From Candidatus Omnitrophota bacterium (GTDB lineage Bacteria > Omnitrophota > Gorgyraeia > Gygaellales > Profunditerraquicolaceae): a stretch of DNA of 64,000 bases. The notes below the pieces were generated by a model. That model did not search any database. It was not told the origin of the DNA and worked only from the letters and a program-made list of their open reading frames with translations. The translations under genes and the position numbers were made by a program. Positions 156-16,474 of this stretch are shown piece after piece. Positions within the stretch are counted from its first letter, which is position 1; each line of letters starts with the position of its first letter. Location of the stretch: positions 163,682 through 227,681 of the forward strand of contig JBAZKL010000003.1 of assembly GCA_041650835.1 (NCBI GenBank). Reading direction: 5' to 3'.

Positions 156-169
156 GAAAACCTCACCGA

Positions 170-1698: not shown

Positions 1699-1701
1699 AG
1701 G

Positions 1702-3394: not shown

Positions 3395-3421
3395 CCGTGC
3401 CCGGCAATGAACCGGGCACGG
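3395..3421 (-). terminator. GC-rich hairpin 16 nt downstream of the pilin stop, a possible terminator
   Basis: ccgtgcccgg-caatgaa-ccgggcacgg gives a perfect 10-bp stem. It is not followed by a clear U-tract on the minus strand, so confidence is limited. Confidence 0.35.
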
Positions 3422-3436
3422 AATAACGCCATTACA

Positions 3437-4003
3437 TTAGTCTTGAGAGATCAAATAATAAACATTAGCGGTAGAGCTATAACGGAAACCTCCCGTGGTC
3501 TGTGTCGCCCCAGGAGAAGCGGTCCCATCCAACTGGGTCTCCATCTTTTGCTCGGCAGCTAAAGGTACGGTACTGATCGTGATTACGCGGGTATTAGGCT
3601 GAGGAGCACCGGCAGTGCCGTCCCAGGCATACGAACCGACGTTCGCGTTTTCATCAGCCGCGGCATAATAGCTATAGTTACCGCTCCATCTTGCTAACGG
3701 CGGCCATTTCTCAATATACGGGCCATCCCAACCGGCAATTGTGGCAGTAGGAGTGGCGGCAATACCATTAGGAGCAGCACCGGCAGAAGCAGACGAAGTC
3801 GGCCAAATACCGCAATCAGAGTAAAATGACATAACTGCCGTCTTGATCGACCGGCAATCTTCAATACTGCTGGCAACCTTTGACTTTTCAATCGCCTTGA
3901 AGGCGTTCGGCGCGATGATCGCGGCTAAAATAGCGATAATAGCGATAACAACAATTAATTCAATCAATGTAAAACCTTTGTTTTTCATGTTTCCCCCTTT
4001 CAC
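3437..4003 (-). CDS. Type IV major pilin / pseudopilin paralog
   Basis: MKGGNMKNKG|[32 protein letters not shown]. The N-terminal ~35 aa after the leader are nearly identical to the pilin at 170..742. Translation may start at the internal Met, giving the leader MKNKG. A strong Shine-Dalgarno (AAGGGGGA) precedes the first ATG. Confidence 0.85.
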   Translation of the reverse strand: MKGGNMKNKGFTLIELIVVIAIIAILAAIIAPNAFKAIEKSKVASSIEDCRSIKTAVMSFYSDCGIWPTSSASAGAAPNGIAATPTATIAGWDGPYIEKWPPLARWSGNYSYYAAADENANVGSYAWDGTAGAPQPNTRVITISTVPLAAEQKMETQLDGTASPGATQTTGGFRYSSTANVYYLISQD

Positions 4004-4147
4004 TTTCTTTACATAAAAATGATATAATTAAGAACAAAAGTGCGCGACCCTCACCTCCTTTCACCAAATTAGGAATAAGACCCTACATAAAAAAGTGTAG
4101 CATATACTCCTAAGAAATTCAATCCTTTTAGCCAAAGCCTCATTTGC

Positions 4148-5824
4148 TTAGCCCGATTCCAAGGTGACCCTGACCACTTCTTCAGTTGTTGTAACACCCA
4201 GCATCAGCTTATCTAACGCGGCTTTACGCAGGGTAGTTAAGCCTTCTTTTACGGCTACCTCGCGGATCACCTCTGCCGAGCAGCGCTTCAAGACCATTTG
4301 CTGAATACCCGGGGACATCTTTAAAAGCTCATAAATACCTACCCTGCCCTTATACCCGCTTTTATTGCATATCTGGCAGCCGCGTCCCCGGCTGAATTTA
4401 ATATCCTGGCCTATCTTTTCTTCTAACCCCAAGCTTTTAAGCAATTCAGGCGCGGGGGTATAATATTCCTTGCATTTTTCGCAGACCCGCCTGACTAAGC
4501 GCTGGGCCAAAATTCCCAATAATGATGAAGAGACGAGGAACGGCTCAACGCCCATATCAATTAAGCGCGTAAAAGAAGACGGCGAATCATTGGTATGCAG
4601 CGTCGAAAAAACAAGGTGGCCGGTGAGCGCTGCCTGTACCGCGATCTCAGCGGTTTCCCTATCTCTGATCTCTCCCACCATGACAATATCCGGGTCCTGG
4701 CGCAAAAAAGAACGCAGCGCCGAAGCAAAGGTCAGGCCCGCGATAGGATTGACCTGGACCTGGCGCATCCCCGGGAATTGATACTCAACAGGATCCTCAA
4801 CAGTCATAATATTGACATCTTCTTTATTAAGCATTTGCATGCTGGAATAAAGCGTCGTAGTCTTACCGCTGCCGGTAGGGCCGGTAACCAGGACGATCCC
4901 GTAGGGAGAGCTTAGGATCTCTTTAAATAAAGCCATCTCCCGGGAAGGGAACCCCAGCGATTCCAGGCCGAGAACCAGCCCTGTTTTATCCAAGATCCTT
5001 AATACTACATTCTCTCCATGGACCGTAGGGCAGGTGGAAACGCGAAAATCAATATTCTTACTGCCGATCTTCATCATAATACGCCCGTCTTGCGGCAGGC
5101 GCTTTTCCGCGATATCCAGATTTGACATGATCTTAAACCGGGATATGATCGCCCCCGAGAGGTCGCGCGGCAGGGACGGCTGATGACGCAGGATCCCGTC
5201 GATACGATAACGGACACTTAAAAGCTTATCCTCCGGCTCTATATGAATATCGGAAGCTTTCATCTGCACTGCCTGCACAATAAGATGATTGACTATTTTT
5301 ATGATCGGGGCTTCTTCACCGAGCTTTTCTCCGTCGGCAAGTTTATCTTTGTCGATAGAGGCGATGATCTGCTGTAAATTAAAAGCGGAACCCCCATAAT
5401 ATTGGTCCTGGGCTTTTCGAATATCTAATTCTTCGGCCAAAACCGGCTCTACATTAAGCTTGGTTATACGCTGGAGCTCATCGATGATAAAAACATTCTT
5501 CGGGTCCTGCATCGCAACCGTCAACGTATTCTCAACCATAAAAACAGGGATCAATTTATATTTTCTGGCAAATTCCTCAGGGATAAGCTTGATAACATCG
5601 GGTTCAATGATATAGCCGGCAAGGTTGAATTTAGCGATACCGGATTGAGAGGCCAGCGCCCGCTCAATTTCCTCCTGGCTTACCAAGCCATTTTTGAGCA
5701 AAATCTCTCCCAGCCGCTCACTTGAGAATTTCTGCTGCTCAAGGGCTTCTTTCAACTGAGCCTGAGTGATCAAGCCGCGCTCGATCAGTATTTCGCCTAA
5801 TTGTTTATGAAAACTTTCTGCCAT
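4148..5824 (-). CDS. pilB: Type IV pilus / type II secretion assembly ATPase, GspE/PilB family
   Basis: Two N-terminal T2SE_N-like repeats (LGEILIERGLITQAQLKEALEQQ and LGEILLKNGLVSQEEIERALASQ). Walker A GPTGSGKTTTLYS. The C-terminus carries the tetracysteine motif CEKC...CQIC. Confidence 0.9.
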   Translation of the reverse strand: MAESFHKQLGEILIERGLITQAQLKEALEQQKFSSERLGEILLKNGLVSQEEIERALASQSGIAKFNLAGYIIEPDVIKLIPEEFARKYKLIPVFMVENTLTVAMQDPKNVFIIDELQRITKLNVEPVLAEELDIRKAQDQYYGGSAFNLQQIIASIDKDKLADGEKLGEEAPIIKIVNHLIVQAVQMKASDIHIEPEDKLLSVRYRIDGILRHQPSLPRDLSGAIISRFKIMSNLDIAEKRLPQDGRIMMKIGSKNIDFRVSTCPTVHGENVVLRILDKTGLVLGLESLGFPSREMALFKEILSSPYGIVLVTGPTGSGKTTTLYSSMQMLNKEDVNIMTVEDPVEYQFPGMRQVQVNPIAGLTFASALRSFLRQDPDIVMVGEIRDRETAEIAVQAALTGHLVFSTLHTNDSPSSFTRLIDMGVEPFLVSSSLLGILAQRLVRRVCEKCKEYYTPAPELLKSLGLEEKIGQDIKFSRGRGCQICNKSGYKGRVGIYELLKMSPGIQQMVLKRCSAEVIREVAVKEGLTTLRKAALDKLMLGVTTTEEVVRVTLESG

Positions 5825-5841
5825 AGTATTTTAAATAATTA

Positions 5842-8800
5842 TCACCATAGGACTTGACGCAGGCGGGCATCCATTTCTTCCAATTTATTTAACCAGCTTT
5901 TCACCGCTTTTTCTTTCTTAACCTGAGATGCTTCCTGGCTGGACTGCCGCACCTGATTGGAGCTGCGTTTATTCATTTGATACTCCAACTGCTCTTTATC
6001 GAGCTGCGCCTGCTTACGCCTGTCGATTACCGTTTGCTGCTGGTCAACCTTGGTTTTCGCCGCCATCTCCCGCTTATCGAACAGCGGCTGCTGGCTTTGA
6101 CGCCGCTGCTGCCGTAATTCAGCCTGAAGCTGCCGGTCTTCTATTGCGCGCTGGCGCCTTTCTTGTGCCTGCGCGACAAGCTCTTCCTTATGCTGGCGCG
6201 CTTCTTCTCGAGCGAGCTGCGCCTGCTTTTTTCTCTCTTCTTTGGCAGCCTTCAATTGTTGAACACGCTCAAGCTTTGCTTTTTCCTCCGCGAGCTGTTG
6301 TTCATGGATCTGTTTTTCCTCCTGGGCCTTTTGCTCTACGAGTTGGAGCCTGGATTCTTCTATCTTTTTCAAAGTCTCTAATTTTTGCTGCAGAGCCTCC
6401 TGGTGCTGGGCAAGGCGCTGCTTTTTCAATTCCTGCTCCTGTAAAGCTATTTGGCGCTTTTGCTCTTCAAGCTGATGAATACGCTCCTGTTCCTGCTTTT
6501 CAGCCGCTAAACGTTTTTCTTCTTCCTCCTTAGCCAACTGTTCCAGGCGACTTTTTTCTTCTTCTTCAGCGAAAACACGGGCTGCCGCCGCAGCCTGTTT
6601 TTGCTCCAAAAGCTCTTTATGTTTTTCCGCGACCCTAAGCTTTCTTACCTCTGCCAGCCTTGAGCGCTCCACTTCTGCCTGCTTCTCAGCTGCCAGGCGT
6701 TTTTCTTCTTCCTGTTTAGCCTGCTGCTCCTGGCGCTGATATTCCTCTTTAAGCTGCTTCAGGCGCTCTTGCCGTTTGGCCTCTTCAGCCAAACGCATTG
6801 CTTTCTTGACCCCCGCTTGCTCTTCTGCCAGCTGCTTTTGCTTTTCCTGGGCCTCTTTATCCGCTGCCAACTGCTTCTCTTCCGCTTCCTTGGCCAGGCG
6901 TTCCTGGCGCTGCTCTTCTTCTTTAAGCTGCTTCAGGCGCTCTTGCCGTTTGGCCTCTTCAACCAAACGCATTGCTTTCTTGACCCCCGCTTGCTCTTCT
7001 GCCAGCTGCTTTTGCTTTTCCTGGGCCTCTTTATCCGCTGCCAGCTGCTTCTCTTCCGCTTCCTTGGCCAGGCGTTCCTGACGCTGCTCTTCTTCTTTAA
7101 GCAGCCTTAGGCGTTCTTCCCTTTTCGCCTGCCCAACCAAACGCATTGCTTTCTTGACCCCCGCTTGCTCTTCTGCCAGCTGCTTTTGCTTTTCCTGGGC
7201 CTCTTTATCCGCTGCCAACTGCTTCTCTTCCGCTTCCTTGGCCAGGCGTTCCTGACGCTGGGCCTCCTCCTGCGCGGCTACCGACTTTGCTTCGGCTGCA
7301 ATTCTTTTTTGTTCTAAAAGCTGTTTTCTTTTTTCCGCTGCATTAATCTTATTCTTTGTTTTCAACTCTGCCTGCTCAGCGCTAAGCTGCGCAGACTTTT
7401 CCTGAGCTTCTTTCTCCGCCGCCAGCCGCTTCTCTTCTTCTTCCTGAGCGAGCTGCTCCTCCGATTTCTTTTCTGCAACAGGCTTACGCAAAGACGCCTG
7501 TTCATTCTCTTGCGCTAATTTATTCTTAAGCTTTCCCCTTGCCTTCTTTTGTAATTTCTGTTTACGCAACTCTTCTTTTTGTATCCGGGCCTCTTCTAAA
7601 GAAACCTCTTTTCTTATCGCAAGCCAGGTATCGACATCTTCTGCCTGCTGCTCTCCTGCCGCAGAATCCTGCGGTAGGAGTGAGGGCTCAACCGGAGCTG
7701 TTGCCCTTTCCGGTTTAAGCGCTTCCTGAGGCTTTAAAGCTTCAACCGATTTTTCAACTTCCAGAGCTCTTTTTTTTTCCTGATCCGCTCCCGGCGGCGC
7801 AGATTGAGCGGCTTTCTCTTTTTCCTTTAGACGATCCTGTTTTTCTTGTATTAACTGCTGCTTTTTTTCATCCCTGAGGCGCGCCTGTTCCAACGCTAAT
7901 TGATCCCGGCGTTCTTGCTCCTTCTTTTCAGCCTCAAGGCGCTTTTGCGCTTCCTGCTTCATGCGCTCTTGCCTATCTTTCTTTTCTTCAGCTTTCTTTT
8001 TTAAGCGCGCCTCTTTTGCCTGTTGAACTTCAAGCCTGCGCGCCTCTTTCTGTTTTTCTAACGCGCCCTTTTGCGCCTTCAGCAATTGCTTTTGTTCTTC
8101 GATCTTAGCAAGATACTCCTGCTCCTGCTCGGTCAATTGCTGGGTACATTCCTGCTTTAATTTTTCCTTCTCTTGCTGGAGCTTCTTCTGCGCCGCCTCT
8201 TTTTGCTTCTGTTTTTCTATTTTTATTTTTTCGGCTTCCTGCTTTTTTTCTTCTTCGGCACGAGCGAGTTCTGCGGCGCGCTCTTTTTCTTCCGCCTGCC
8301 GCCTTAACTCTTCCTGTTTTCTTTCTTCAGCCAGAAGCTTTCTTTCTTCCCGGATCTTTTCTTTTGCCGCGGCTAATTCCTGCAGGTGTTCCTGCTTTTC
8401 CCGGGCTGCTTCTCGCCGCTCCTCTTCCCGCTGCTTAAGAAGCTCTTCCTTAGCCTTCTTTGCTTCTTCAAGCTTCTTGAGGCGCGCTTGTTTTATTTGT
8501 TCTTCCTGAGATTTCTTTTCTTCTGCTGCTGCCTGCTTCTCAGCTGCCAGGCGCTTTTCTTCCTCCTGCTTAGCTAACGCATCCTGGCGCTTTTGCTCCT
8601 CTGCTGCCTGCTTCTCGGCTGCCAGGCGCTTTTCTTCCTCCTGCTTAGCTAACGCATCCTGGCGCTTTTGCTCCTCTGCGACCTGCTGAAGGCGCGCTTC
8701 TTTTTTTTGCTGAGCGAGCTTCCTTTTTTCTTCTTTACGCTTTTCCAATTCGCTCAAGCGCTGCCTGCGCTCTTCTTCTTTTTGTTTTTTACTCAGCATC

Positions 8801-9507
8801 TTCCGGCGCTCCTGCTCCGCGCGCTCGGCTTCCAATTGCTGCTGCTGGCGCATCCGTTCTAATTCGAGTTTTTGCGTGATCAATTCCTGCTTCTTCGCTT
8901 CTATCTCCGCCAGGCGTGCCTGCGCCAAGCGCTCGCGCTCTAATTTTTCTTCATTTAATTGTTTTTGCTCTTCTTGCTTTACCATCTCATCTTTACGCCT
9001 GCGCTCCTCATCCTGGGCAAAAAAACGGGCTTGCGTGAAGACTCTTTTTTCTTCCTCCAGATAGATCTGCCGCTGGATCTCTTCTTCTTCCTTTATATAC
9101 TGGTCTATCCTGTTGACCAACGCGCTGATCCTGCCGTCTTCGCCTAAATATTCTGCCTGTATGCCTGAAACGGTTTTCGAAGCCGGCGAGGCTTCACCTA
9201 TTTTTCTGTCCACTCCGCAGGCAGGCATAGCTGGGGCGGGAAAAGACTCAAGGTGCCCTATCTGCATGGTTACCGGCGACTGCTCCTGCAGAAAATCATT
9301 AATCTCTTGTTTCCGGCGTAAGATCTCTTCCTTTTTCTTACGCAGAGAACGAATATACTCTTCCTCTGCCTTGACCTTGCGCTGCATTTCTTCAAGGCGC
9401 AGCTCTTTTTCAGCCATATTATTATCTTGAGCGTAAACAACCCCCGCTCCCCAAACCATGCATCCCGTCACATAAAACCCAGCGATTATTAAAAATAGTC
9501 TTTTCAT
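5842..9507 (-). CDS. Giant coiled-coil lipoprotein (1221 aa, E/K/Q/A/R-rich) with internal tandem repeats
   Basis: Signal peptide with lipobox (FYVTGC). The remainder is almost entirely heptad-like charged low-complexity sequence. A 171-bp (57-aa) unit is repeated three times (about 6770-7260), and an ~80-bp unit twice (about 8520-8680). Antisense plus-strand ORFs also look repetitive for the same reason. Confidence 0.8.
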   Translation of the reverse strand: MKRLFLIIAGFYVTGCMVWGAGVVYAQDNNMAEKELRLEEMQRKVKAEEEYIRSLRKKKEEILRRKQEINDFLQEQSPVTMQIGHLESFPAPAMPACGVDRKIGEASPASKTVSGIQAEYLGEDGRISALVNRIDQYIKEEEEIQRQIYLEEEKRVFTQARFFAQDEERRRKDEMVKQEEQKQLNEEKLERERLAQARLAEIEAKKQELITQKLELERMRQQQQLEAERAEQERRKMLSKKQKEEERRQRLSELEKRKEEKRKLAQQKKEARLQQVAEEQKRQDALAKQEEEKRLAAEKQAAEEQKRQDALAKQEEEKRLAAEKQAAAEEKKSQEEQIKQARLKKLEEAKKAKEELLKQREEERREAAREKQEHLQELAAAKEKIREERKLLAEERKQEELRRQAEEKERAAELARAEEEKKQEAEKIKIEKQKQKEAAQKKLQQEKEKLKQECTQQLTEQEQEYLAKIEEQKQLLKAQKGALEKQKEARRLEVQQAKEARLKKKAEEKKDRQERMKQEAQKRLEAEKKEQERRDQLALEQARLRDEKKQQLIQEKQDRLKEKEKAAQSAPPGADQEKKRALEVEKSVEALKPQEALKPERATAPVEPSLLPQDSAAGEQQAEDVDTWLAIRKEVSLEEARIQKEELRKQKLQKKARGKLKNKLAQENEQASLRKPVAEKKSEEQLAQEEEEKRLAAEKEAQEKSAQLSAEQAELKTKNKINAAEKRKQLLEQKRIAAEAKSVAAQEEAQRQERLAKEAEEKQLAADKEAQEKQKQLAEEQAGVKKAMRLVGQAKREERLRLLKEEEQRQERLAKEAEEKQLAADKEAQEKQKQLAEEQAGVKKAMRLVEEAKRQERLKQLKEEEQRQERLAKEAEEKQLAADKEAQEKQKQLAEEQAGVKKAMRLAEEAKRQERLKQLKEEYQRQEQQAKQEEEKRLAAEKQAEVERSRLAEVRKLRVAEKHKELLEQKQAAAAARVFAEEEEKSRLEQLAKEEEEKRLAAEKQEQERIHQLEEQKRQIALQEQELKKQRLAQHQEALQQKLETLKKIEESRLQLVEQKAQEEKQIHEQQLAEEKAKLERVQQLKAAKEERKKQAQLAREEARQHKEELVAQAQERRQRAIEDRQLQAELRQQRRQSQQPLFDKREMAAKTKVDQQQTVIDRRKQAQLDKEQLEYQMNKRSSNQVRQSSQEASQVKKEKAVKSWLNKLEEMDARLRQVLW

Positions 9508-9517
9508 AAGATAACCT

Positions 9518-10801
9518 CTAATTATCCATCGCCTGTATTTTCCCCGCGACCGTCTTTTTAACTTCCTCTAAAACCCTTAAATCCTGCTCTTGCCTGCGCA
9601 GGTCCTGTTCCAATGCCTCTCTTTCTGAAACCAGGGAAGAATGTTTTTTATTCAACACTTCTACTTTCTTGACCGCTTCTTTCTGCTTATCTTTTTCCCG
9701 GGCCTCAGCTAACAACAATGCTTTTTCTTGCTTCTGCTTATCTTGATAATACGCTTTTCCGAGGCCGAACCGCTCCTGCTGCCCCATCTTAGCATATTCG
9801 TTAGGCGTAATGATAGTAGGAGAAACAAAAATCATTAATTCTGTCTTATCCCTGGTATCCTTCTGGCTCTTAAACAAATAGCCCAATACGGGAATATCTC
9901 CCAACAGAGGGATCTTGGTCTGGCCTTTTGTAACTTTATCTTTAATTAAACCTCCGATTATTAATGTTTGCCCGTTCCCTATAATAACCCTGGTTGTCGC
10001 TTGCCGTTTATCGATAATAGGGACATTATACGTTAAGCCGGAAATAGTCAAGGGCAAATCTCCCGTTTTCTCGCTTACCTGAGGGTCAAGATCCATAGCA
10101 ATTTGCCCATCTTCATTAATAGTCGGGGTAACCTTCAAGCTTATTCCTATTTCTTCAAAATGTATCGTCCAGGTGACCGTTTGATTGCCGGCATCGTCGA
10201 TCGTCACCGACGGCTCTGCCCAAGGATAACTCTGGATAATCTTTAATTCCGCCTGCCGGTTATTAATCGTTGTTATCCGGGGGGAAGAAAGGATATTCGT
10301 ATCCATCGCGTTAGCCAGCGTCTGCACGACAATATTAATATTATCGTCGAAAATAGCAAAGGTAAAAGGAGATTCCGATGTCCCGCCGGTGGCTTGGAGC
10401 GGAGGATAAATGGTATTTTTGTATGAAAGGCTCTGCGTGAGCGGGCCCGGCAACGCTCCTAAAGTACTTGCCGTTCCGGCCTTTAAACTTCCGATAGGGA
10501 GATATCCTTTGTCCGCGAATAACTGCCAGTTGACCCCCAAAGCGTGTTCCTTTTGCAATTTTGATTCAACGACCCGGGCTTCGATCAAAACCTGCTGCGG
10601 AGGCGCATCCGCCATCGCCAGATAATCCTCAACACGCTGGACGTTATCAGGATAATCGATCACAACAATAGAATTCGGCTCATTCCCATAGAGCACCTTT
10701 CCGTCTGTAGATAACAACGACCTAAGATTATCACTGATCTGCTGAGCATGGACTATGGAAAAACAAAAAAGAAAAAATAAAACGCACCCTATTCTTTTCA
10801 T
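9518..10801 (-). CDS. Secretin, GspD/PilQ family, short form with a C-terminal coiled-coil tail
   Basis: Signal peptide. Secretin_N-like SIVVIDYPDNVQRVEDYL. Secretin core motifs VLIEARVVE and TLIIGGLIKD...KIPLLGDIPVLGYLFKS...ELMIFVSP. The last ~80 aa are K/E/Q-rich coiled coil. The start is preceded by AAGGAG. Confidence 0.8.
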   Translation of the reverse strand: MKRIGCVLFFLFCFSIVHAQQISDNLRSLLSTDGKVLYGNEPNSIVVIDYPDNVQRVEDYLAMADAPPQQVLIEARVVESKLQKEHALGVNWQLFADKGYLPIGSLKAGTASTLGALPGPLTQSLSYKNTIYPPLQATGGTSESPFTFAIFDDNINIVVQTLANAMDTNILSSPRITTINNRQAELKIIQSYPWAEPSVTIDDAGNQTVTWTIHFEEIGISLKVTPTINEDGQIAMDLDPQVSEKTGDLPLTISGLTYNVPIIDKRQATTRVIIGNGQTLIIGGLIKDKVTKGQTKIPLLGDIPVLGYLFKSQKDTRDKTELMIFVSPTIITPNEYAKMGQQERFGLGKAYYQDKQKQEKALLLAEAREKDKQKEAVKKVEVLNKKHSSLVSEREALEQDLRRQEQDLRVLEEVKKTVAGKIQAMDN

Positions 10802-10819
10802 TTATTCTCCTTCTGGCTA

Positions 10820-11797
10820 TTAATTGCTTGTACTACTGCTCGTGCTACTGGTTGTAGATGCGCTGGTAGTCGAGGAGCCGGTACCGCTTTCAGTGGTCAC
10901 CACACCCACCACATCCGAAGCCTTTAAATATTTCATCTTAAAGACCTTACTGGTCATACGTTGGTCTATCTGCTGAAGATATGCTTCAATACGCGCGACA
11001 TAAGGAGGATAATCGATCACGATGATCGAATTCGGCACCTGCCCCAAAAGGATCTTTCCTTTCGCGGAAATAAGGTCATAGATCGTGCTTTCTTCCTTTT
11101 TCGCCTCTTCAAGTGCAGCGTCACCGGAGCCTGCGGCGGCCGAAGGCTGCGCCACAGTCGGAGAAGCCGCCTCGGTGCCTTGTGTCGCCTTCGCAGTATC
11201 AAGCAGCTTCCTAGCTTGAATATATTTTAAAACAACCATTTTGGTGATTAAATGCGGGCTGACCTTGACGATAGAGCCTTTTTTCTCCAGCACCAGATTA
11301 CTGATCTCGGCGATCCCTTCAAGAGCTTCTTCTAAGGAAATATTCGTAAAACTGGCGGTGATCTTTCCCTGGATATCTTTATCAACTAAAATATTCAAAT
11401 TATAATCATGCGCGATAACACGGAACAAATCGGACAATTCCACATTCCGCAGCTCGATCGAATACACCGGCAATTCATTTTCCAGGCGCTTGATCTCTAA
11501 AACCGGGACAGGAGCGGTCAATTCTTTCTTTACTTCTTTTTTCTTTTCCGCCTCTTTGCCGTCTTTGCTCTCCTGGTCATCGGCTTCTTCTTTTTCATCT
11601 CCCGGCTCTTCTTCACCATCATCGACACTGGAACTTTTTTGCCCGGCGCTTGACGCCGCAGGACTCATTTGAGCCGGTTTTTCATCAGCTTCATTTTCCA
11701 CCCCTGGCTGCGGCCTGGCAAACAAAGAATTCCCGCAATTGTAAAGCATAAACAAAAAACTGATCAACCCGATGAGCCCTATTTTCTTTAGTGTCAT
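10820..11797 (-). CDS. Secretin N-domain protein, the periplasmic N0/N1-like half of a split secretin
   Basis: Signal peptide with a lipoprotein-like Cys (LYNCG). An acidic linker, then secretin_N motifs (ILLGQVPNSIIVIDYPPYVARIEAYLQQID), and a Ser/Thr-rich C-terminal tail. It ends 18 nt before the secretin gene, which has its own RBS. Confidence 0.65.
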   Translation of the reverse strand: MTLKKIGLIGLISFLFMLYNCGNSLFARPQPGVENEADEKPAQMSPAASSAGQKSSSVDDGEEEPGDEKEEADDQESKDGKEAEKKKEVKKELTAPVPVLEIKRLENELPVYSIELRNVELSDLFRVIAHDYNLNILVDKDIQGKITASFTNISLEEALEGIAEISNLVLEKKGSIVKVSPHLITKMVVLKYIQARKLLDTAKATQGTEAASPTVAQPSAAAGSGDAALEEAKKEESTIYDLISAKGKILLGQVPNSIIVIDYPPYVARIEAYLQQIDQRMTSKVFKMKYLKASDVVGVVTTESGTGSSTTSASTTSSTSSSTSN

Positions 11798-13854
11798 TTT
11801 TTAAGTCCTTGTTCTGAATTCAAATCGTTGCTGCCGATGCTGGATTCGAATTCTGGTTTATCAAGCCCGTGTGCCCATATGATCGTCACCTGATTTTTGA
11901 AAACACCGTATACGGTAAAATCCTTCGTCCCGGGATTAAAAAAAAGATCACACCGCCCCGCCTTAAAAATCCCCTTTTTATTTTCTTCTAAGGCAATACC
12001 CGGGTATCTCTTCTGGAGCCACTGTTTATGCCCTTCGGCAAATTCGAGCGCGTCTTCAATGGTATCCCAGGATGACACAAAACGTATGAGACGGTTCCCC
12101 CGGTTATTTTCATACACCATGAGCCGGTCATCCAGCCAGCCGGAAACTGACTGATCAACGGCCTGCTTATCCAATAAACTGCTGAAAGACAAAAGGAGCG
12201 TGAATTCTCCTAAAGTAGTTTCATAGATCTTTTTCCATGGCTCGGAAGGCTTAACACCCTCATCAAGAACAGAGGGAGTTTTTTCTGCCGTAATTTCCCT
12301 GCCCGCGTATTTATGCGGATGCATGATCTCTTCCATGGAAACCGGAGGCGCCTTATAAATATTGCCGATATCGCTCCAATTGAACTGTCGTAAATACGAC
12401 TGGATAAACCGGGCGCCATAACCGTATATATTATACAGGATATTTCGCTTTGCATACTGCGATTGTTTCAAAAATTTATCTTCCAGCAGGACAAAAACAT
12501 CTTCAAGATGCTGCAGCTTCTTATCATCCTTGTTCAAAATATATTCAAGCATTACCGCGGAAGCATCGCCCTCTATGAGGGACTGCCGGGCAAACGCCAG
12601 GTCAAAATTATCCCGGGTATGAAGGCGGTCGGAGAATTTTTCAATATTGTAGTTTTTGTCCTGGAACGCGTGCGCCAATTCATGGACTACGACGATCTCG
12701 GCAAAATGAGGGGGAAGCCAATCCCCGATCAGGATCGTCTTGGTTTGAGGGTCATATAACCCCGCGATGGAAGAAATCTCCGAATTAAACGTACTTTCAA
12801 GGTAATCCGCGTCCTCGTTGACGACCCCTAACCATTTCATAACAAAACTTTCATTCTCCCGGACTTCGGGAGGCAGATCACGCTCCAATTGTTCACGTAA
12901 AAATTCCCCGAATGACACACGGTCTTTATATTCGACATTGATCGCCTCGGGCTTGCCCCAACCGCGTATCTGCATGACCGACTGCGTCAGACGAGGAAGC
13001 ATCCCTTTAAGCTTTTCTTTTTCTTGAATAACCTTATCTTCGACAAACGCGGGGACCTGTGTTGCACCCGGCACGCCGAAATCGTAATACTTGACGGTCT
13101 GCAGGATATACATATCGCCCAGCTTGCCTTCAGCGCGCAAGAGATGCGGCAAATACGTATCGGCGTCGATCCAGGTCTTAACAAAGATCTCTCCAACCAC
13201 ATTCCAATACGTCAACATCTCCGCGCCCAGCTTATACTGCAGCACAAAACAATCTTTACCGTTCCTTTTCTCCATACCCGCAAGCTTAACGGTTGAAGCA
13301 TCAGCCGCGCCCGCGTTAATTGAAGCAAGGCTGTTTAAGATCCCGTATTCTACCGCTTGTTGCGCGTCTTTAGCGGAAATCTTCAATTGTTCGCATTTCC
13401 ATTCCCGCTTATTCAGGTCCCACGTAAAAGGGATACCCCTGATCTTATACGTTTGCACCCATTGAGAAGTTGAAATGCTCTTTGATAAAATCGATGATAC
13501 GCTTACCCTGCCGGTTGTCCGGTAATCATCAATGTTGGTAATATCGCTCTTAAAATCCGATTTGATATGAAAAAGAGGGGTTTCCAGCCAAGTTTCCATT
13601 TCCATGCGCACAGAACGCTCTTTAAAAAATGCCGAGGTGGTTTTTTCCAAAACTTGATAGGGGGTACGCTGAACAGTTACCTGAGGGAAGCCGCAGGGCG
13701 CTTGATGTTCTTTTTTGTTTTCCACGCAGGTATCCGGTTTCGCAACCATACAGTCGCTTAAATTAACCCGCTGCCAGCCGGTGAGTAACGGCAGCACCAT
13801 AGCTAAGAAAATAACTCGAGAGGTTCCTTGTAATCCTGACCCTGTTTTCATCAA
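11794..13854 (-). CDS. Secreted zinc metalloprotease-like protein with HExxH
   Basis: 686 aa with an N-terminal signal sequence. IVVVHELAHAFQD contains an HExxH zincin motif. The 4-nt overlap (ATGA) with the downstream-adjacent gene suggests operon coupling. Confidence 0.55.
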   Translation of the reverse strand: MMKTGSGLQGTSRVIFLAMVLPLLTGWQRVNLSDCMVAKPDTCVENKKEHQAPCGFPQVTVQRTPYQVLEKTTSAFFKERSVRMEMETWLETPLFHIKSDFKSDITNIDDYRTTGRVSVSSILSKSISTSQWVQTYKIRGIPFTWDLNKREWKCEQLKISAKDAQQAVEYGILNSLASINAGAADASTVKLAGMEKRNGKDCFVLQYKLGAEMLTYWNVVGEIFVKTWIDADTYLPHLLRAEGKLGDMYILQTVKYYDFGVPGATQVPAFVEDKVIQEKEKLKGMLPRLTQSVMQIRGWGKPEAINVEYKDRVSFGEFLREQLERDLPPEVRENESFVMKWLGVVNEDADYLESTFNSEISSIAGLYDPQTKTILIGDWLPPHFAEIVVVHELAHAFQDKNYNIEKFSDRLHTRDNFDLAFARQSLIEGDASAVMLEYILNKDDKKLQHLEDVFVLLEDKFLKQSQYAKRNILYNIYGYGARFIQSYLRQFNWSDIGNIYKAPPVSMEEIMHPHKYAGREITAEKTPSVLDEGVKPSEPWKKIYETTLGEFTLLLSFSSLLDKQAVDQSVSGWLDDRLMVYENNRGNRLIRFVSSWDTIEDALEFAEGHKQWLQKRYPGIALEENKKGIFKAGRCDLFFNPGTKDFTVYGVFKNQVTIIWAHGLDKPEFESSIGSNDLNSEQGLKK

Positions 13855-14310
13855 CTACGACGCTCCCGGAACAACCGTTCCGATTTTAATAATATACTCC
13901 CCTTGAGTATCTTTTAAAATAACATCTTCGGCATTAATAACCACAACCTGCTTATTATCAAGGATGTCCCCGACCTGATAGACCTGTCCGTTAATAATTG
14001 CCTTACTTTTATTATCAGCCGAATGGATGATCGCTGATACCGTTAAATATTCAAGCGGGATTTGCGCGCTTTTATTTTCGAAAGACGATTCCTCGTCTGT
14101 GGTTAAAAAAGGGTTCAGACGGGGTAACGAGTCAAAATATGAAGCCTGCGAAGCCTGCGCCTGTACAGCTTCGGTTACCGGAAGAACGGCCTGCTTTTTG
14201 AGCGGAACAATAGAGTCATCCGTAAGCTTCGTTATTTCATCTTCAGGGCTGCAACCCGCGCCCAAAAAAGCAAACAATAAAATAAGTAAAATGGCCCTTA
14301 ACTTATTCAA
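13855..14310 (-). CDS. Small lipoprotein, hypothetical
   Basis: MNKLRAILLILLFAFLGAGCSPED gives a signal peptide plus lipobox LGAGC. The start overlaps the HTH gene by 8 nt. Confidence 0.5.
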   Translation of the reverse strand: MNKLRAILLILLFAFLGAGCSPEDEITKLTDDSIVPLKKQAVLPVTEAVQAQASQASYFDSLPRLNPFLTTDEESSFENKSAQIPLEYLTVSAIIHSADNKSKAIINGQVYQVGDILDNKQVVVINAEDVILKDTQGEYIIKIGTVVPGAS

Positions 14311-14494
14311 TGCTGCCCCTTATGATTTTACTTAATTCATTAAGGTCCTGTTGGCTGTATTGCCGCCAATGATTGATCGAGTTACGCTTTGGCCTTGGGA
14401 AAATCCCCTTTTTCTCATACCGAAAAAGGGTTTGTTTAGAGATCCCTAATTTCTCGGCAGCTTCCTTAGTTGTATATATTATTTCTTGTTCCAT
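14303..14494 (-). CDS. Small AlpA/excisionase-like (HTH_17-type) DNA-binding protein, free form
   Basis: 63 aa. TTKEAAEKLGISKQTLFRYEKKGIFPRPKRNSINHWRQYSQQDL matches the AlpA/Xis/MerR N-terminal HTH pattern. It is a close paralog of the N-terminal domain of the ORF at 30025..30678, with identity through ...KKGIFP.P.RN.IN.W..YS..DL. Confidence 0.75.
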   Translation of the reverse strand: MEQEIIYTTKEAAEKLGISKQTLFRYEKKGIFPRPKRNSINHWRQYSQQDLNELSKIIRGSIE

Positions 14495-14574: not shown

Positions 14575-14620
14575 ATACTATTTGACTATACTTTAAACTA
14601 TTAGATATCAATTGTCAAGA
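14575..14620 (-). promoter_or_regulatory. Putative sigma70-like promoter plus conserved operator module upstream of the free HTH gene
   Basis: The minus strand has TTGACA (14618..14613), a 17-nt spacer and TAAAGT. The conserved motif GTCAAATAGTAT (14586..14575) lies at the predicted transcription start. The same two motifs, with the same ~35-nt spacing, occur upstream of the HTH-pilin fusion at 30702-30746. Confidence 0.45.
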
Positions 14621-14682: not shown

Positions 14683-15516
14683 CTATCCCGCAGCAAGCTT
14701 CAACAACTTGTTTTTGCCTTCTTTCGAAAGCTCTATGAATTTTATACCTAAATAATATCGTTTCCCTTCCTGTATATTACAATAAACGATCTCCCCCTTT
14801 GCCTGGACCGTTTCAGCTTCACTTATTATGCCGGAATTCAGTTTAAATTCTATAGATACTTCCAGGCCTTTAGGCAAAAACAAAAACACCTGCAAACCGA
14901 CAGCCATACCCGATTCCGATATATTGCAGGAAACCCCGTCAATAGGCGAGGCGCAACGCAGCCGTACCTCCTGCCCTTCAAGGGAAACGCGCACCGGAAC
15001 GGACAAGCTCCGGCGGCCGGATTCCCGATGGAAAGGGACCCCCCGTAAAGGATTCTTCTTGAACAGTAAATTTTCCAATTTAAAGAAATCCGCTTCTTGC
15101 CCGTAATATGAATCAAGCGCCTGCTGGATAGCGCGGGGTGAAGCGATCAAAGGCTCTACCGCCGATTCGCTTAAAGCAGACAGGCGGTCCAGGAAAGCCG
15201 TATTAAAAGGGTCTGAACAGGCAATATATAACGTATTCTTTACTTTAAATAACGGAATACACTGGTATTCGCGGCAGAATGATTCGCTTAATCCCCGGAA
15301 AACATCCGCGTTGATCGCATATTCCGTTAGTGAAACATAATTAAGGGCGCTTTCCTGGGCAAAAAGAATAAAAACATCTTCCTCGGTGAGATGGCCCCGC
15401 CTGACCAAAACACTCCACATGGATTTACCGAGCCTGAGAGCTTCTTGCTTGGCGGCAGAAAGCTGTTCTGAAGTAACCCGCTTGCTCCGGATAAGTTTTA
15501 ATTCAAACTCTTCCAT
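14683..15516 (-). CDS. T2SE_N (GspE N-terminal-like) domain fused to a PilZ domain; a putative c-di-GMP receptor
   Basis: The N-terminal ~140 aa resemble the GspE/PilB N-terminal domain (LGKSMWSVLVRRGHLTEEDV...CREYQCIPL...NTLYIACSDP). The C-terminus has PilZ motifs RESGRR (RxxxR) and NISESGM (D/NxSxxG). Confidence 0.7.
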   Translation of the reverse strand: MEEFELKLIRSKRVTSEQLSAAKQEALRLGKSMWSVLVRRGHLTEEDVFILFAQESALNYVSLTEYAINADVFRGLSESFCREYQCIPLFKVKNTLYIACSDPFNTAFLDRLSALSESAVEPLIASPRAIQQALDSYYGQEADFFKLENLLFKKNPLRGVPFHRESGRRSLSVPVRVSLEGQEVRLRCASPIDGVSCNISESGMAVGLQVFLFLPKGLEVSIEFKLNSGIISEAETVQAKGEIVYCNIQEGKRYYLGIKFIELSKEGKNKLLKLAAG

Positions 15517-16122: not shown

Positions 16123-16474
16123 TCTTTTGCTCCTCTAAGTTTTTAACATAGCGGTCGATATACTCCTTCCCGGAAGAAGGAAAGACCTTGGTGAACATGA
16201 TCCCCATGCCCGCCGCTTCCGCGGTGCCTGCCGGCCGGCTCCACTGCACGACCCCTTCCGCGTGAATGATCTTTTTTTCTTTCCCGCCTTCATCAAACTC
16301 AAACATCACTTCAATCTTGGCGTTAGCCGGCTCAACCTTATCGGTTGAAACGAACATGCCTCCCGCGGAAATATCGCGGGTTTCGACATACTGCCAAAAA
16401 CTTCTTCCCCTGACCTCCACCCGCAACTTAACAAACGCCCTTTTATATTGCCTCTTTTCGTCAAAAGCTCCCAT
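16115..16474 (-). CDS. PilZ domain protein, c-di-GMP binding
   Basis: RQYKR (RxxxR) and DISAGGMFV (DxSxGG) are canonical PilZ motifs. 119 aa. Confidence 0.8.
   Translation of the reverse strand: MGAFDEKRQYKRAFVKLRVEVRGRSFWQYVETRDISAGGMFVSTDKVEPANAKIEVMFEFDEGGKEKKIIHAEGVVQWSRPAGTAEAAGMGIMFTKVFPSSGKEYIDRYVKNLEEQKNA

What the first reader, a model, noticed from the sequence alone, without database searches (positions are those of the whole stretch)
3437..14494. Atypical secretin-ATPase-pilin locus B with split secretin, secreted metalloprotease and no platform or alignment proteins
Downstream of the free HTH gene, in one orientation with short or overlapping junctions, lie:
- a lipoprotein;
- a 686-aa HExxH protease;
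- a secretin N-domain protein followed by a separate short secretin that has a C-terminal coiled-coil tail;
- a 1221-aa coiled-coil lipoprotein;
- a GspE/PilB ATPase;
- major pilin genes.

No PilC/GspF, PilMNOP or minor pilins are present here, whereas locus A upstream has them all.

The arrangement looks like a stripped-down secretion or fibre system that may borrow parts from locus A. Alternatively it could be a distinct protease-exporting T2SS-like device.
Basis: partly seen in the sequence, partly recalled or inferred. Interest (0 to 1): 0.7.

Follow-up and report, generated by a model that had tools for sequence, protein, structure and literature searches.

The report
Complete pilus/secretion machine with two-piece secretin
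This is the front part of a complete, ordinary-looking pilus or secretion machine of uncultured Omnitrophota bacteria, and its one unusual feature is that the outer-membrane pore protein is made from two genes instead of one.

Summary
All the genes exist as described, on the minus strand. The "stripped-down, no platform" reading is a window-edge artefact.

**What locus B is.** It is the promoter-proximal two-thirds of a complete type-IV-filament (T2SS/T4P-type) operon that recurs across Candidatus Omnitrophota. The gene order is:
- MerR-type HTH
- PilP/GspB-type HR lipoprotein
- DUF8575 HExxH protein
- secretin in two pieces
- coiled-coil protein
- c-di-GMP-type PilB/GspE ATPase
- pilins
- ABC trio
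- four minor pilins
- GspF/PilC platform
- PilM-N fusion
- PilO

Everything after the pilin at 170-742 lies within about 8.5 kb beyond window position 1. This is seen on contigs 99.99-100% identical to the window.

**The split secretin.** It is real and found in every close relative examined.
- The cut falls inside a Secretin_N (N3) domain, just after its first strand, at a low-complexity loop that unsplit relatives still carry.
- Joined in silico, the halves restore a full domain and a PulD/PilQ-like protomer.

**DUF8575.** It combines a LolA-like domain, a gluzincin domain and a PsbP-like domain. It occurs only in a subset of these loci, so it is an accessory and most plausibly a cargo.

**Precedent and verdict.** A split secretin is already known in Rhc-type T3SS. 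This is a new variant of a known kind, of moderate interest.

The parts
14590..14618 (-). Sigma-70-like promoter match (TTGACA-17-TAAAGT) in the 188-nt gap upstream of the MerR gene; possible operon start
   Evidence: This is a consensus match only.
14303..14494 (-). 63-aa MerR/excisionase-type HTH protein; the conserved first gene of the operon
   Evidence: Pfam MerR_1 scores 47 bits. It is present at this position in nearly all related loci.
13855..14310 (-). 151-aa lipobox protein with a C-terminal HR-type beta domain. It is the PilP/GspB/GspC equivalent and the predicted binder of the secretin N0 domain.
   Evidence: The window copy hits T2SSB, T2SSC and CdsD_C only weakly. Across the family, 27 of 31 members hit CdsD_C (best 8.7e-8) and 23 of 31 hit T2SSB (best 7.7e-7). 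hhalign gives 96.3% probability, E 1.7e-9, to the locus A protein at the pilP position, and the alignment includes the NPF/RDPF motif.
11794..13854 (-). 686-aa DUF8575/DUF6782 protein: short signal peptide, LolA/LprG-like beta domain, HExxH+E gluzincin domain and PsbP/Mog1-like C-terminal domain. It is a lineage-specific accessory and a candidate cargo.
10820..11797 (-). SecN, the N-terminal secretin piece: signal peptide, acidic disordered region, N0 (STN), N1 (Secretin_N with a low-complexity insert), the first strand of the next N domain (SKVFKMKYLKASDVVG) and a variable S/T-rich tail
   Evidence: Domain hits are. The strand motif has mean column identity 0.72, against 0.38 for the tail. 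78 of 82 close cluster representatives are stand-alone proteins of at most 395 aa.
10802..10819 (-). Split junction: second stop codon (TAG) after the TAA at 10820-10822, then a GGAGAA ribosome-binding site before the ATG of the second piece
9518..10801 (-). Sec, the C-terminal secretin piece: its own signal peptide (..VHA|QQ), the rest of the N3 domain starting at the mature N-terminus, the secretin pore domain and a roughly 85-aa K/E-rich helical tail
   Evidence: PF00263 scores 164 bits and Secretin_N matches only profile positions 11-69. The closest PDB relatives are XcpQ (148 bits) and PilQ (118 bits).
5842..9507 (-). 1221-aa exported coiled-coil protein with a conserved C-terminal ..SWLNKLEEMDARLRQVLW motif. 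It contains a 174-nt x3.1 tandem repeat at 6728-7260.
   Evidence: It has no Pfam or NCBIfam hit. Orthologues range from 184 to 1221 aa in 0-2 genes and share the signal peptide and the terminal W motif. It is 1105 aa in the ENA assembly of the same population.
4148..5824 (-). PilB/GspE-type assembly ATPase with an N-terminal MshE-type c-di-GMP-binding motif and an MshEN domain
   Evidence: T2SSE scores 470 bits and MshEN 76 bits. PilB scores 664.6 against a cut-off of 675.65, GspE 614.7 against 630.25, and the c-di-GMP motif 66 against 38. In PDB, PilF/PilB score 550-565 bits and GspE 444. It is 45% identical to the locus A ATPase.
3437..4003 (-). Major pilin or pseudopilin with a G|FTLIE prepilin motif (probable start ATG at 3988) and a GspG-like globular domain
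   Evidence: N_methyl scores 38.8 bits and T2SSG 31.9 bits. GspG scores 63.6 against a cut-off of 88.85.
883..3169 (-). ABC trio: a 237-aa ATPase, a 253-aa permease with about 5 hydrophobic (predicted TM) segments, and a 271-aa protein with a single N-terminal hydrophobic segment and one weak TPR hit. It is embedded between the major pilin and the remaining pilins.
   Evidence: Domain and hydrophobicity results are. The trio holds the same position in at least 10 related loci.
170..742 (-). Second GspG-like pilin paralogue (190 aa). The operon continues beyond window position 1.
   Evidence: for the pilin assignment. for the continuation.
14683..15516 (-). 277-aa MshEN + PilZ protein immediately upstream. 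It is conserved next to the operon in many relatives and is a probable c-di-GMP input.
   Evidence: MshEN scores 76.7 bits and PilZ 39 bits. Synteny is shown.

Best explanation
**What it is.** Locus B is the first part of a complete second type-IV-filament machine of an Omnitrophota bacterium. The machine belongs to the secretin-containing T2SS/T4aP branch.

**Shown by sequence and synteny.** The full gene set is:
- MerR-type HTH
- HR-domain lipoprotein (PilP/GspB-like)
- secretin
- PilB/GspE ATPase
- major pilins
- four minor pilins
- GspF/PilC platform
- PilM-N fusion (GspL-like)
- PilO/GspM

The order is T2SS-like: C-D-E-G-H-I-J-K-F-L-M. In this lineage there are three insertions: DUF8575, a coiled-coil protein and an ABC trio.

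**The two-piece secretin.** The pore is encoded as two separately exported polypeptides.
- SecN carries N0, N1 and only the first strand of N3.
- Sec starts, right after its signal peptide, with the remainder of N3, followed by the pore domain.
- The cut sits in a low-complexity loop that unsplit relatives retain, so this looks like a gene fission.

**Inferred mechanism.**
1. In the periplasm, SecN re-joins Sec by donating strand beta-1 to complete the N3 fold.
2. Its N0 domain is held by the HR lipoprotein, which couples the outer-membrane pore to the inner-membrane platform.
3. The c-di-GMP-responsive ATPase and the platform polymerise the pilins into a filament that passes through, or pushes cargo through, the pore.

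**DUF8575.** It is a Sec-exported gluzincin with a LolA-like domain. It is a subclade-specific passenger, most likely a cargo or surface enzyme of this machine. My estimate is about 0.45 for cargo and about 0.25 for a periplasmic accessory.

**What stays open.** Whether the filament is a short pseudopilus (secretion) or an external pilus (adhesion) is undecided. I put it at roughly even odds.

**What the confidence figure covers.** It refers to the architectural claims: a complete machine and a genuine, conserved split inside N3. Re-association of the halves in trans is about 0.6.
For: **Domains.**

**Continuation beyond the window.** Seen on contigs 99.99-100% identical to the window.

**Synteny.**
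- The contiguous canonical operon is seen in L086, L073 and L003, and with platform genes in other positions in L016, L061 and L082.
- Among loci where the upstream gene is visible, 31 are split and 4 unsplit.
- 78 of 82 close SecN cluster representatives (E at most 1e-30) are stand-alone proteins of at most 395 aa.

**Position of the cut.**
- SecN ends with the conserved [ST][KR][VI]FK[LM]KY[LI]KAxDVVG followed by a variable tail.
- Mature Sec begins with ISxNIRSLLSxxGKVLYGxEPNSIVVIDYP.
- The strand motif is as conserved as the folded domains: 0.72, against 0.68-0.78 for the domains and 0.38 for the tail.
- The joined tail and head score 41.8 bits over Secretin_N profile positions 1-69. The head alone scores 26.0 bits over 15-69, below the gathering cut-off. 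The L003 pair gives the same pattern.
- Unsplit orthologues (47-51% identity, 97-99% coverage) carry an S/T-rich loop exactly at the cut.

**Structure prediction of the fused construct.**
- AF2 gives beta-1 at pLDDT about 91, a linker below 50, and then a confident alpha-beta-beta-alpha.
- The model aligns end to end with PulD, InvG, PilQ and GspD. The best match is 6hcg at E 6.6e-24 over 641 columns.

**HR lipoprotein.**. The published GspB HR domain binds secretin N0 (PMC9239104).

**c-di-GMP motif.** 66 bits against a cut-off of 38.

**DUF8575.**. Its hydrophobic N-terminal stretch is too short to score as a membrane anchor, which fits a cleavable signal peptide.

**Precedent for cargo in the operon.** The metalloprotease SslE is encoded with its dedicated T2SS in E. 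coli (PMC3707838, PMC4014459, PMC5012682).
Against: - There is no experimental evidence at all.
- The genes beyond position 1 are inferred from other assemblies of the same population, not read in the window.
- The pilin is followed by a gap containing a weak terminator-like hairpin, then by the ABC trio. The distal genes may therefore be a separate transcription unit.
- In the L004/L015/L076 lineage, no minor pilins or platform lie within 5-10 kb of the module. There the parts are elsewhere or shared.
- The AF2 model is a covalently fused construct, and unsplit homologues were in its alignment. It shows compatibility, not assembly in trans, and I could not inspect which strands beta-1 pairs with.
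- No curated T2SS or T4aP equivalog cut-off is reached by any component.
- The lipo151 profile found nothing among PDB sequences.
- DUF8575 export beyond the periplasm is pure inference.
Confidence: 0.8

Rival explanations
1. The machine is a second adhesive or motility type IV pilus rather than a secretion system. DUF8575 is then a periplasmic or envelope accessory, for example a processing or lipid-handling factor, and not a cargo.
For: - The ATPase aligns full length with PilB/PilF at 550-565 bits, against 444 for GspE, and has the PilB-type MshEN architecture.
- The alignment proteins hit PilM, PilN and PilO rather than GspL.
- There are several tandem major-pilin paralogues: three or four here and up to six in L110. 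This is unusual for a periplasmic pseudopilus.
- Omnitrophota clusters of this kind are classed as T4aP, and V. archaeovorus expresses T4aP (PMC10066038).
- DUF8575 has a LolA/LprG-type lipid-carrier fold.
Against: - The gene order is that of a T2SS.
- The best hits of the pilins and the platform are GspG and GspF.
- A separate T4aP-ordered locus A sits next door.
- No PilT-type retraction ATPase is in the window or the flanks examined.
- DUF8575 is dispensable in about half of the loci.
Confidence: 0.4
2. SecN and Sec do not re-associate. Sec alone forms a short pore like the phage pIV or RcpA class. SecN is an independent periplasmic adaptor or regulator, and its terminal strand is a remnant or binds something else.
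For: - Short secretins with few N domains function in other systems: pIV 7ofh and RcpA 8odn are among the matches.
- SecN ends in a long variable tail.
Against: - The 16-residue strand motif is as conserved as the folded domains across relatives down to about 42% identity.
- Without it, the Sec N3 domain falls below the Pfam cut-off and lacks profile positions 1-14.
- The two genes are always adjacent, 0-54 nt apart in 12 of 13 loci.
Confidence: 0.2
3. One reading: a stripped-down system without its own platform or alignment proteins, which borrows them from locus A.
For: - Inside the window, no platform gene lies downstream of the pilin.
- In the L004/L015/L076 lineage, the module stands alone with unrelated neighbours.
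- Locus A is adjacent in many genomes.
Against: - Dedicated GspF/PilC, PilM-N, PilO and minor pilins follow just beyond the window edge on identical contigs.
- They are contiguous with the module in L003, L073 and L086, and adjacent in other arrangements in L016, L061 and L082.
- The 151-aa protein already supplies the PilP-type link.
Confidence: 0.04
4. The split is a pseudogene or an assembly or sequencing artefact.
For: None beyond the unusual architecture.
Against: - There is a double stop, an RBS and a new signal peptide.
- Independent assemblies agree.
- The split is present in every DUF8575-type locus and in 31 loci overall.
- There are 78 stand-alone SecN cluster representatives.
- Both halves are under evident constraint.
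Confidence: 0.01

Closest known systems
Type II secretion system (Gsp/Pul/Eps: GspC-D-E-F-G-H-I-J-K-L-M)
   Same: - The gene order across the full operon is C-D-E-G-H-I-J-K-F-L-M.
- The pilins and the platform hit GspG and GspF best.
- An HR-domain protein sits before the secretin.
- The chimera model matches PulD best.
   Different: - The secretin is in two polypeptides.
- The alignment proteins hit PilM, PilN and PilO rather than GspL/M.
- The ATPase has a PilB/MshE-type N-terminus.
- There are several major-pilin paralogues.
- No curated Gsp cut-off is reached.
- No pilotin is recognised.
- The ABC trio and the coiled-coil genes are embedded in the operon.
Type IVa pilus machine (PilB, PilC, PilMNOPQ) and the MSHA pilus ATPase MshE
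   Same: - The ATPase is PilB-like over its full length and carries the MshE-type c-di-GMP motif.
- Roles equivalent to PilM, N, O and P are present.
- Published surveys class Omnitrophota clusters as T4aP.
   Different: - The gene order is not pilMNOPQ.
- No PilT is seen.
- The secretin is split and lacks AMIN domains.
- PilM and PilN are fused.
- Locus A in the same window is the more T4aP-like paralogue.
Split secretin RhcC1 (NolW) / RhcC2 of Rhc-family type III secretion systems
   Same: The secretin N-terminal and C-terminal parts are encoded by two ORFs, as a family-wide trait of unknown significance (PMC3574062).
   Different: - That case is a T3SS, not a T2SS/T4P-type machine.
- Its two genes are separated by other genes or lie in different operon segments. 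Here they are adjacent, 0-54 nt apart in most loci.
- It is an independent event.
- The exact cut point relative to the N domains was not compared.
GspB/OutB, GspC HR domain and PilP
   Same: A small membrane-anchored protein whose C-terminal beta domain matches the T2SSB/CdsD_C models. It is encoded directly upstream of the secretin, and in Dickeya it is known to bind the secretin N0 domain.
   Different: - It is only about 150 aa and has no PDZ, coiled-coil or peptidoglycan-binding extension.
- The window copy scores below the Pfam cut-offs.
- Binding was not tested.
E. coli T2SS-beta with its co-encoded metalloprotease lipoprotein SslE (YghJ)
   Same: A zinc-metalloprotease-type protein is encoded within or next to the operon of the machine that exports it.
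   Different: - SslE is an M60-like lipoprotein of about 1500 aa.
- DUF8575 is an unrelated gluzincin with LolA-like and PsbP-like domains and no conserved lipobox.
- Export of DUF8575 is not shown.
Hvo_1808 / DUF6782 / DUF8575 family
   Same: The central HExxH...E domain is homologous. Hvo_1808 is a Sec-exported, cell-associated protein in Haloferax.
   Different: - The Omnitrophota proteins add an N-terminal LolA/LprG-like domain.
- They score below the NCBIfam cut-off (117.8 against 200).
- No function is known for any member.

Membership tests
Secretin superfamily (PF00263) | C-terminal secretin pore domain | tested here: met
   The 427-aa ORF scores 164.3 bits against a cut-off of 27.5. 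Its PDB relatives are XcpQ, PilQ and GspD.
Canonical GspD/PilQ secretin | N0, the further N domains and the pore domain in one polypeptide | tested here: not met
   N0, N1 and strand 1 of N3 are on the 325-aa ORF. The rest of N3 and the pore are on the 427-aa ORF, with a double stop, an RBS and a second signal peptide between them.
Canonical GspD/PilQ secretin | Reaches the curated equivalog score (TIGR02517 GspD, TIGR02515 PilQ) | tested here: not met
   GspD scores 230.1 against 351.35, and PilQ scores 206.5 against 284.35.
Type II secretion system | Full set of components C, D, E, F, G, H-K, L, M | tested here: inconclusive
   A homologue exists for every role when the sequence beyond the window is included. 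All are below the curated cut-offs: GspE 614.7/630.25, GspF 324.9/424, GspG 63.6/88.85, with GspH, GspI and GspM only weak.
Type II secretion system | Exports folded periplasmic proteins | not testable with these tools
   There is only a candidate cargo (DUF8575) with a signal-peptide-like N-terminus.
Type IVa pilus machine | PilB, PilC and PilM, N, O, P, Q | tested here: inconclusive
   PilB scores 664.6/675.65, PilC 293/700 and PilM 95.6/133. PilN and PilO are hit by Pfam, and the PilP-type role is supported by hhalign.
Type IVa pilus machine | Retraction ATPase PilT | tested here: inconclusive
   Among the window ORFs scanned with Pfam, only two T2SSE-family genes were found, and both are PilB/GspE-length. 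None appears in the 10-kb flanks of L005. About 20 ORFs of 40-64 kb and the rest of the genome were not searched.
MshE-type c-di-GMP-binding assembly ATPases | N-terminal c-di-GMP-binding motif (NF053729) plus MshEN domain | tested here: met
   The motif scores 66 bits against a cut-off of 38, and MshEN scores 75.8 bits. Binding itself was not tested.
Rhc-type split secretin (RhcC1/RhcC2) | Secretin encoded as separate N-terminal and C-terminal ORFs | tested here: met
.
Rhc-type split secretin (RhcC1/RhcC2) | Part of a type III secretion gene cluster | tested here: not met
   The neighbours are pilins, a PilB/GspE ATPase, GspF and PilM, N, O. SctC scores 113.9 against 238.45.
DUF6782 / DUF8575 / Hvo_1808 putative metallopeptidases | Family HMM above its cut-off | tested here: met
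   PF20573 scores 31.4 against 27. PF26686 is precomputed on all orthologues. The narrower NCBIfam Hvo_1808 model is not reached, at 117.8 against 200.
Gluzincin (clan MA(E)) metallopeptidases | HExxH plus a downstream Glu ligand in a thermolysin-like or M1-like fold | tested here: met
PilP / GspB / GspC HR-domain proteins | C-terminal HR beta domain, membrane or lipid anchor, gene adjacent to the secretin | tested here: inconclusive
   The window copy scores 18.5 against 28.4 for T2SSB. Across the family, 23 of 31 members hit T2SSB and 27 of 31 hit CdsD_C. hhalign gives 96.3% to the locus A protein at the pilP position. The profile search of PDB sequences found nothing.
Bacterial lipoproteins (claim made for the 1221-aa protein) | Conserved lipobox cysteine after the signal peptide | tested here: not met
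   The Cys is absent from most orthologues, which instead have AxA|Q-type signal-peptidase I sites.

The most novel reading that the evidence does not exclude
The secretin of this widespread Omnitrophota machine is a true two-component pore. The N0-N1 module is exported on its own and docks reversibly onto the channel subunit by donating one beta-strand to an otherwise incomplete N3 domain. Coupling of the outer-membrane pore to the inner-membrane platform would then be a separate assembly step that could be regulated. This would be a natural split-domain experiment on how secretins are built and gated.
Probability: 0.35. Interest if true: 0.65.

Novelty: new variant of a known kind. Interest (0 to 1): 0.45.

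Why it matters
**For secretin biology.** Secretins of T2SS, T4P and T3SS are textbook single-chain pore subunits.
- A naturally split version is maintained in dozens of divergent lineages, with the cut inside a folded N domain.
- It gives a ready-made system for asking what the N0-N1 module contributes to targeting, gating and coupling to the inner membrane.
- It also shows that a domain can be completed in trans in the periplasm.

**For Omnitrophota.** These are uncultured, ultra-small, putatively predatory or parasitic cells.
- The work shows they carry two adjacent, complete, c-di-GMP-wired filament machines.
- It flags a conserved gluzincin with a lipid-carrier-like domain as a candidate exported effector.

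**For annotation.** The two halves are currently labelled 'hypothetical protein'. Automated counts that expect one secretin gene could therefore miscount this system.

Tried and rejected
1. **Frameshift or artefact as the cause of the split.** Rejected on the junction sequence, independent assemblies and universal conservation.
2. **DUF8575 and the split arising together or depending on each other.** This was suggested by the first two unsplit loci. It was rejected after the metagenome scan found 17 split loci without DUF8575. What remains true is that no unsplit locus has DUF8575.
3. **Profile of the 151-aa family against PDB sequences.** No significant hit. The identity of this protein rests on Pfam hits across the family and on hhalign to the locus A paralogue.
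5. **Deciding T2SS versus T4aP from NCBIfam equivalogs and PDB relatives.** Not decisive. Every score is sub-threshold and the core ATPase scores are equal.
6. **Literature search for a split T2SS or T4P secretin, and for secretins in Omnitrophota.** Only the Rhc T3SS case turned up.
7. **Split secretins outside this family.** The 45 more distant secretin loci from the same scan (about 29-35% identity) showed no two-gene split. Their secretin ORFs are 355-1198 aa, and the few shorter than 470 aa lie on short contigs or at contig ends.
8. **Promoter and terminator scans.** They give only weak consensus matches.

Full report
**1. Observation**

The region 3437-14494 holds eight co-oriented minus-strand genes with tight junctions.

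| Coordinates (minus strand) | Size | Call from Pfam/NCBIfam |
|---|---|---|
| 14494..14303 | 63 aa | MerR-type HTH |
| 14310..13855 | 151 aa | lipobox-like LGAGC; weak T2SSB/T2SSC/CdsD_C hits |
| 13854..11794 | 686 aa | HExxH protein; DUF6782 31.4 bits; Hvo_1808 117.8, below cut-off |
| 11797..10820 | 325 aa | STN/N0 + Secretin_N |
| 10801..9518 | 427 aa | Secretin, 164 bits; only a partial Secretin_N at its N-terminus |
| 9507..5842 | 1221 aa | K/E/Q/R/A-rich; no family hit |
| 5824..4148 | 558 aa | PilB/GspE ATPase; MshEN domain; MshE-type c-di-GMP motif 66 bits against cut-off 38 |
| 4003..3437 | 188 aa | GspG-like prepilin |

The organism is Candidatus Omnitrophota, going by the names on identical and related proteins and on related MAG records.

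Upstream lie a c-di-GMP/two-component block and locus A. Locus A runs MerR-fusion, pilins, PilM-N fusion, PilO, a 156-aa protein, secretin, coiled coil, TPR, PilB, PilC.

**2. The missing parts are just beyond the window**

- An ENA contig matches window 1-6912 at 99.99% identity. A Logan contig matches window 1-4886 at 100%.
- On both, the sequence continues past window position 1 with pilin-like genes of 219/198, 153/145, 127, 218 and 140 aa. Then come a GspF/PilC platform (406 aa), a PilM-N fusion (580/577 aa), PilO (178 aa), another pilin (125 aa) and a TPR protein.
- NCBIfam gives GspF 324.9 bits (PilC 293), PilM 95.6, weak GspM, GspH-like and PilV/XpsI-like minor pilins, and GspG-like major pilins. 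All are below the curated cut-offs.
- In relatives the whole set is contiguous. L086 reads MerR, HR protein, SecN, Sec, ATPase, pilin, four minor pilins, GspF, PilM-N, PilO. L073 is the same with the ABC trio. In L003 the pilin is followed directly by four minor pilins and GspF. L016, L061 and L082 carry the platform genes immediately upstream of MerR.
Locus B is not stripped down.
- One caveat: in the L004/L015/L076 lineage, the module from MerR to the pilin stands alone among unrelated genes.

**3. The 151-aa protein is the PilP/GspB-type link**

- Thirty-one orthologues share an NPFL motif and a C-terminal beta domain of the form LSAIFYSP..S.AIIDGRIVKEGD.IDNK.IV.I.PE.VILKD.
- 27 of 31 hit Pfam CdsD_C (best 8.7e-8) and 23 of 31 hit T2SSB (best 7.7e-7).
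- The family profile aligns with the locus A 156-aa protein, which sits at the pilP position. The hhalign probability is 96.3% (E 1.7e-9), and RDPF aligns to NPF.
- The HR domain of GspB/OutB binds the secretin N0 domain (PMC9239104).
- A profile search of PDB sequences found nothing. The assignment is therefore good but not structural.

**4. The split secretin is real, old and inside a domain**

*The junction.* It reads TAA-TAG, then GGAGAA, then ATG. The second ORF begins with a signal peptide.

*Conservation.*
- All 13 distinct Omnitrophota loci fetched through DUF8575 have SecN (272-332 aa) followed by Sec (403-784 aa). The gap is 0-54 nt or an overlap, apart from 245 nt in L004.
- A scan of metagenome contigs with secretin motifs added more loci. 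Among loci where the upstream gene is visible, 31 are split and 4 unsplit.
- Against 1.84 billion cluster representatives, 78 of the 82 closest SecN relatives (E at most 1e-30) are stand-alone proteins of at most 395 aa.

*Where the cut lies.*
- SecN always ends with [ST][KR][VI]FK[LM]KY[LI]KAxDVVG followed by a variable S/T/G-rich tail.
- Mature Sec always begins with ISxNIRSLLSxxGKVLYGxEPNSIVVIDYP.
- The strand motif has mean column identity 0.72, like the folded domains (0.68-0.78). The tail has 0.38.
- Against Pfam Secretin_N, the Sec head alone scores 26.0 bits over profile positions 15-69, below the cut-off. SecN tail joined to Sec head scores 41.8 bits over positions 1-69. The L003 pair gives 23.7 rising to 34.9.

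*Unsplit relatives.*
- Unsplit orthologues exist in other Omnitrophota: P0042, P0045, P0046, P0050, P0063 and P0094, of 671-750 aa. They are 47-51% identical and cover 97-99% of the joined sequence.
- They carry an S/T-rich low-complexity loop exactly where the cut lies.
- The simplest history is a gene fission in a disordered loop inserted between strand 1 and helix 1 of N3. A secondary fusion cannot be formally excluded.

*Structure prediction of the joined construct.*
- AlphaFold2 was run with 68 aligned sequences and gave mean pLDDT 80.8.
- It gives strand 193-198 (SecN-derived) at pLDDT about 91, a linker at 214-230 below 50, then helix 230-245, two strands and helix 267-280 at about 90, followed by the pore domain.
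- Foldseek aligns the model end to end with PulD (6hcg, E 6.6e-24, 641 columns), InvG, V. cholerae PilQ and GspD.
- This shows the halves are compatible with one PulD/PilQ-like protomer. It does not prove assembly in trans.

*Outside this family.* The 45 more distant secretin loci from the same scan showed no two-gene split. Their secretin ORFs are 355-1198 aa, and the few shorter than 470 aa lie on short contigs or at contig ends.

*Literature.* The only split secretin I found is RhcC1/RhcC2 of Rhc-family T3SS, whose significance is unknown (PMC3574062). I found nothing on T2SS/T4P secretins or on Omnitrophota secretins. The Omnitrophota survey counts these clusters as T4aP (PMC10066038).

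**5. The HExxH protein**

- About 31 full-length orthologues, 29-84% identical, turned up. All that carry a name, and all 12 in species-representative genomes, are Omnitrophota. The central domain alone also occurs in other bacterial phyla and in haloarchaea.
- H391, E392, H395 and E428 are invariant.
- The AlphaFold2 model (pLDDT 77.7, pTM 0.78) has three domains:
- The N-terminus has a short hydrophobic stretch ending in a conserved P...G|W. This fits a cleavable signal peptide better than an anchor.
- The gene always sits between the HR protein and SecN, but it is absent from 17 split loci and from all unsplit loci. It is therefore an accessory of a subclade, not a core part and not linked to the split.
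- A co-encoded metalloprotease cargo has a precedent in SslE of the E. coli T2SS-beta. Hvo_1808 itself is a Sec-exported, cell-associated protein of unknown function (PMC2945643).

**6. Other components**

*Coiled-coil protein.*
- It has a signal peptide and a conserved C-terminal ..SWLxKLxxxDxWxxxxLW motif.
- Orthologues range from 184 to 1221 aa, in zero to two genes.
- The window copy contains a 174-nt x3.1 repeat. The ENA assembly has two fewer units and encodes 1105 aa.
- Its Cys is not conserved, so it is probably not a lipoprotein.
- In L017 and L018 the secretin itself carries a long C-terminal extension.

*ABC trio.* It consists of an ATPase, a permease with about five hydrophobic (predicted TM) segments and a protein with a single N-terminal hydrophobic segment and one weak TPR hit. 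It holds the same place in at least ten loci.

*ATPase B.* It is 45% identical to ATPase A. Full length it resembles PilB/PilF at 550-565 bits. Over the catalytic core it matches GspE and PilF equally, at about 422-425 bits.

**7. Mechanism**

*Shown:* the gene content, the synteny, the position of the cut and the conservation of both halves.

*Inferred:*
1. SecN and Sec are exported separately and re-join, with the SecN strand completing the N3 fold.
2. The HR lipoprotein holds N0, tying the pore to the PilM-N/PilO/GspF platform.
3. The c-di-GMP-sensing ATPase drives pilin polymerisation.
4. DUF8575 is exported to the periplasm and is most likely handed out through this machine.

*T2SS-like points:* the gene order and the GspG and GspF best hits.

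*T4aP-like points:* the ATPase architecture, the PilM/N/O hits, the several major-pilin paralogues and the published classification.

I cannot decide between a secretion role and a pilus role.

**8. Verdict**

The headline interpretation is an edge artefact.
- What remains is a conserved, naturally split secretin in a T2SS/T4P-type machine, plus a lineage-specific gluzincin passenger.
- This is a new variant of a known kind, of moderate interest mainly to secretin and type-IV-filament specialists.

Noticed in passing
window 44640-47543 (-): A 967-aa ORF combines a Peptidase_M1 domain (residues 306-525) with a C-terminal Omp85-superfamily barrel (673-961). This is an unusual fusion of an aminopeptidase-type gluzincin to an outer-membrane barrel.
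   Followed up: no
window 883-3169 (-); also L007, L010, L011, L013, L014, L017, L018, L073, L110; upstream of MerR in L053 and L135: A three-gene ABC module travels with this operon in many relatives. It consists of a 237-aa ATPase, a 253-aa permease with about five hydrophobic (predicted TM) segments, and a 271-aa protein with a single N-terminal hydrophobic segment and one weak TPR hit. It usually sits between the major and minor pilins. Its role is unknown.
   Followed up: partly
window 5842-9507 (-), repeats at 6728-7260 and 8526-8687: The coiled-coil gene holds a 174-nt x3.1 tandem repeat (95% matches) and a 75-nt x2.2 repeat. Another assembly of the same population lacks two 174-nt units (1105 aa against 1221 aa). 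This is either real length polymorphism or assembly collapse.
   Followed up: partly
orthologues of window 5842-9507 in L003, L007, L010, L011, L014, L054, L056, L061, L062, L066, L110: The exported coiled-coil proteins between the secretin and the ATPase vary from 184 to 1221 aa, in 0-2 genes. They keep a C-terminal amphipathic motif ending in Trp (..SWLxKLxxxDxWxxxxLW). This suggests a conserved docking end on a spacer of variable length.
   Followed up: partly
L017 12759-14387 and L018 4148-6502: In two divergent relatives the pore-forming piece is 542 and 784 aa. The extra length is a C-terminal extension of repeated TPR-like units (..LYSxAVSLYxxKxYxxAYxKFxxL..), in place of a separate coiled-coil gene.
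   Followed up: no
proteins P0049, P0051, P0052, P0060, P0064, P0071; loci L063, L064, L069, L072: A third secretin type occurs in Omnitrophota. It is unsplit, 538-658 aa, with N0 and a single N domain. That domain carries the same kind of low-complexity insertion between its first strand and the rest.
   Followed up: partly
window 14683-17633 (-): A signalling block lies between loci A and B: histidine kinase (17633..16785), PilZ (16474..16115), response regulator (16122..15538) and an MshEN+PilZ protein (15516..14683). Together with the c-di-GMP motifs of both ATPases, it points to c-di-GMP control of both machines.
   Followed up: partly
window 17734-30678 (-): Locus A is a complete paralogous machine in T4aP-like order. 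It has a MerR HTH fused to a 217-aa protein, a PilM-PilN fusion (598 aa), an unsplit short secretin (471 aa), its own coiled-coil protein (446 aa) and a TPR protein.
   Followed up: partly
window 48533-52897 (-): Two neighbouring ORFs of unknown function. One is 650 aa with an N-terminal PilZ domain. The other is 802 aa and combines TPR, DUF3857, a transglutaminase core and DUF3858.
   Followed up: no
window 37663-40864 (-): A lysine-2,3-aminomutase-like radical SAM gene is followed by two tandem D-Ala-D-Ala-ligase-type ATP-grasp genes. This may be a small amino-acid ligation cassette.
   Followed up: no
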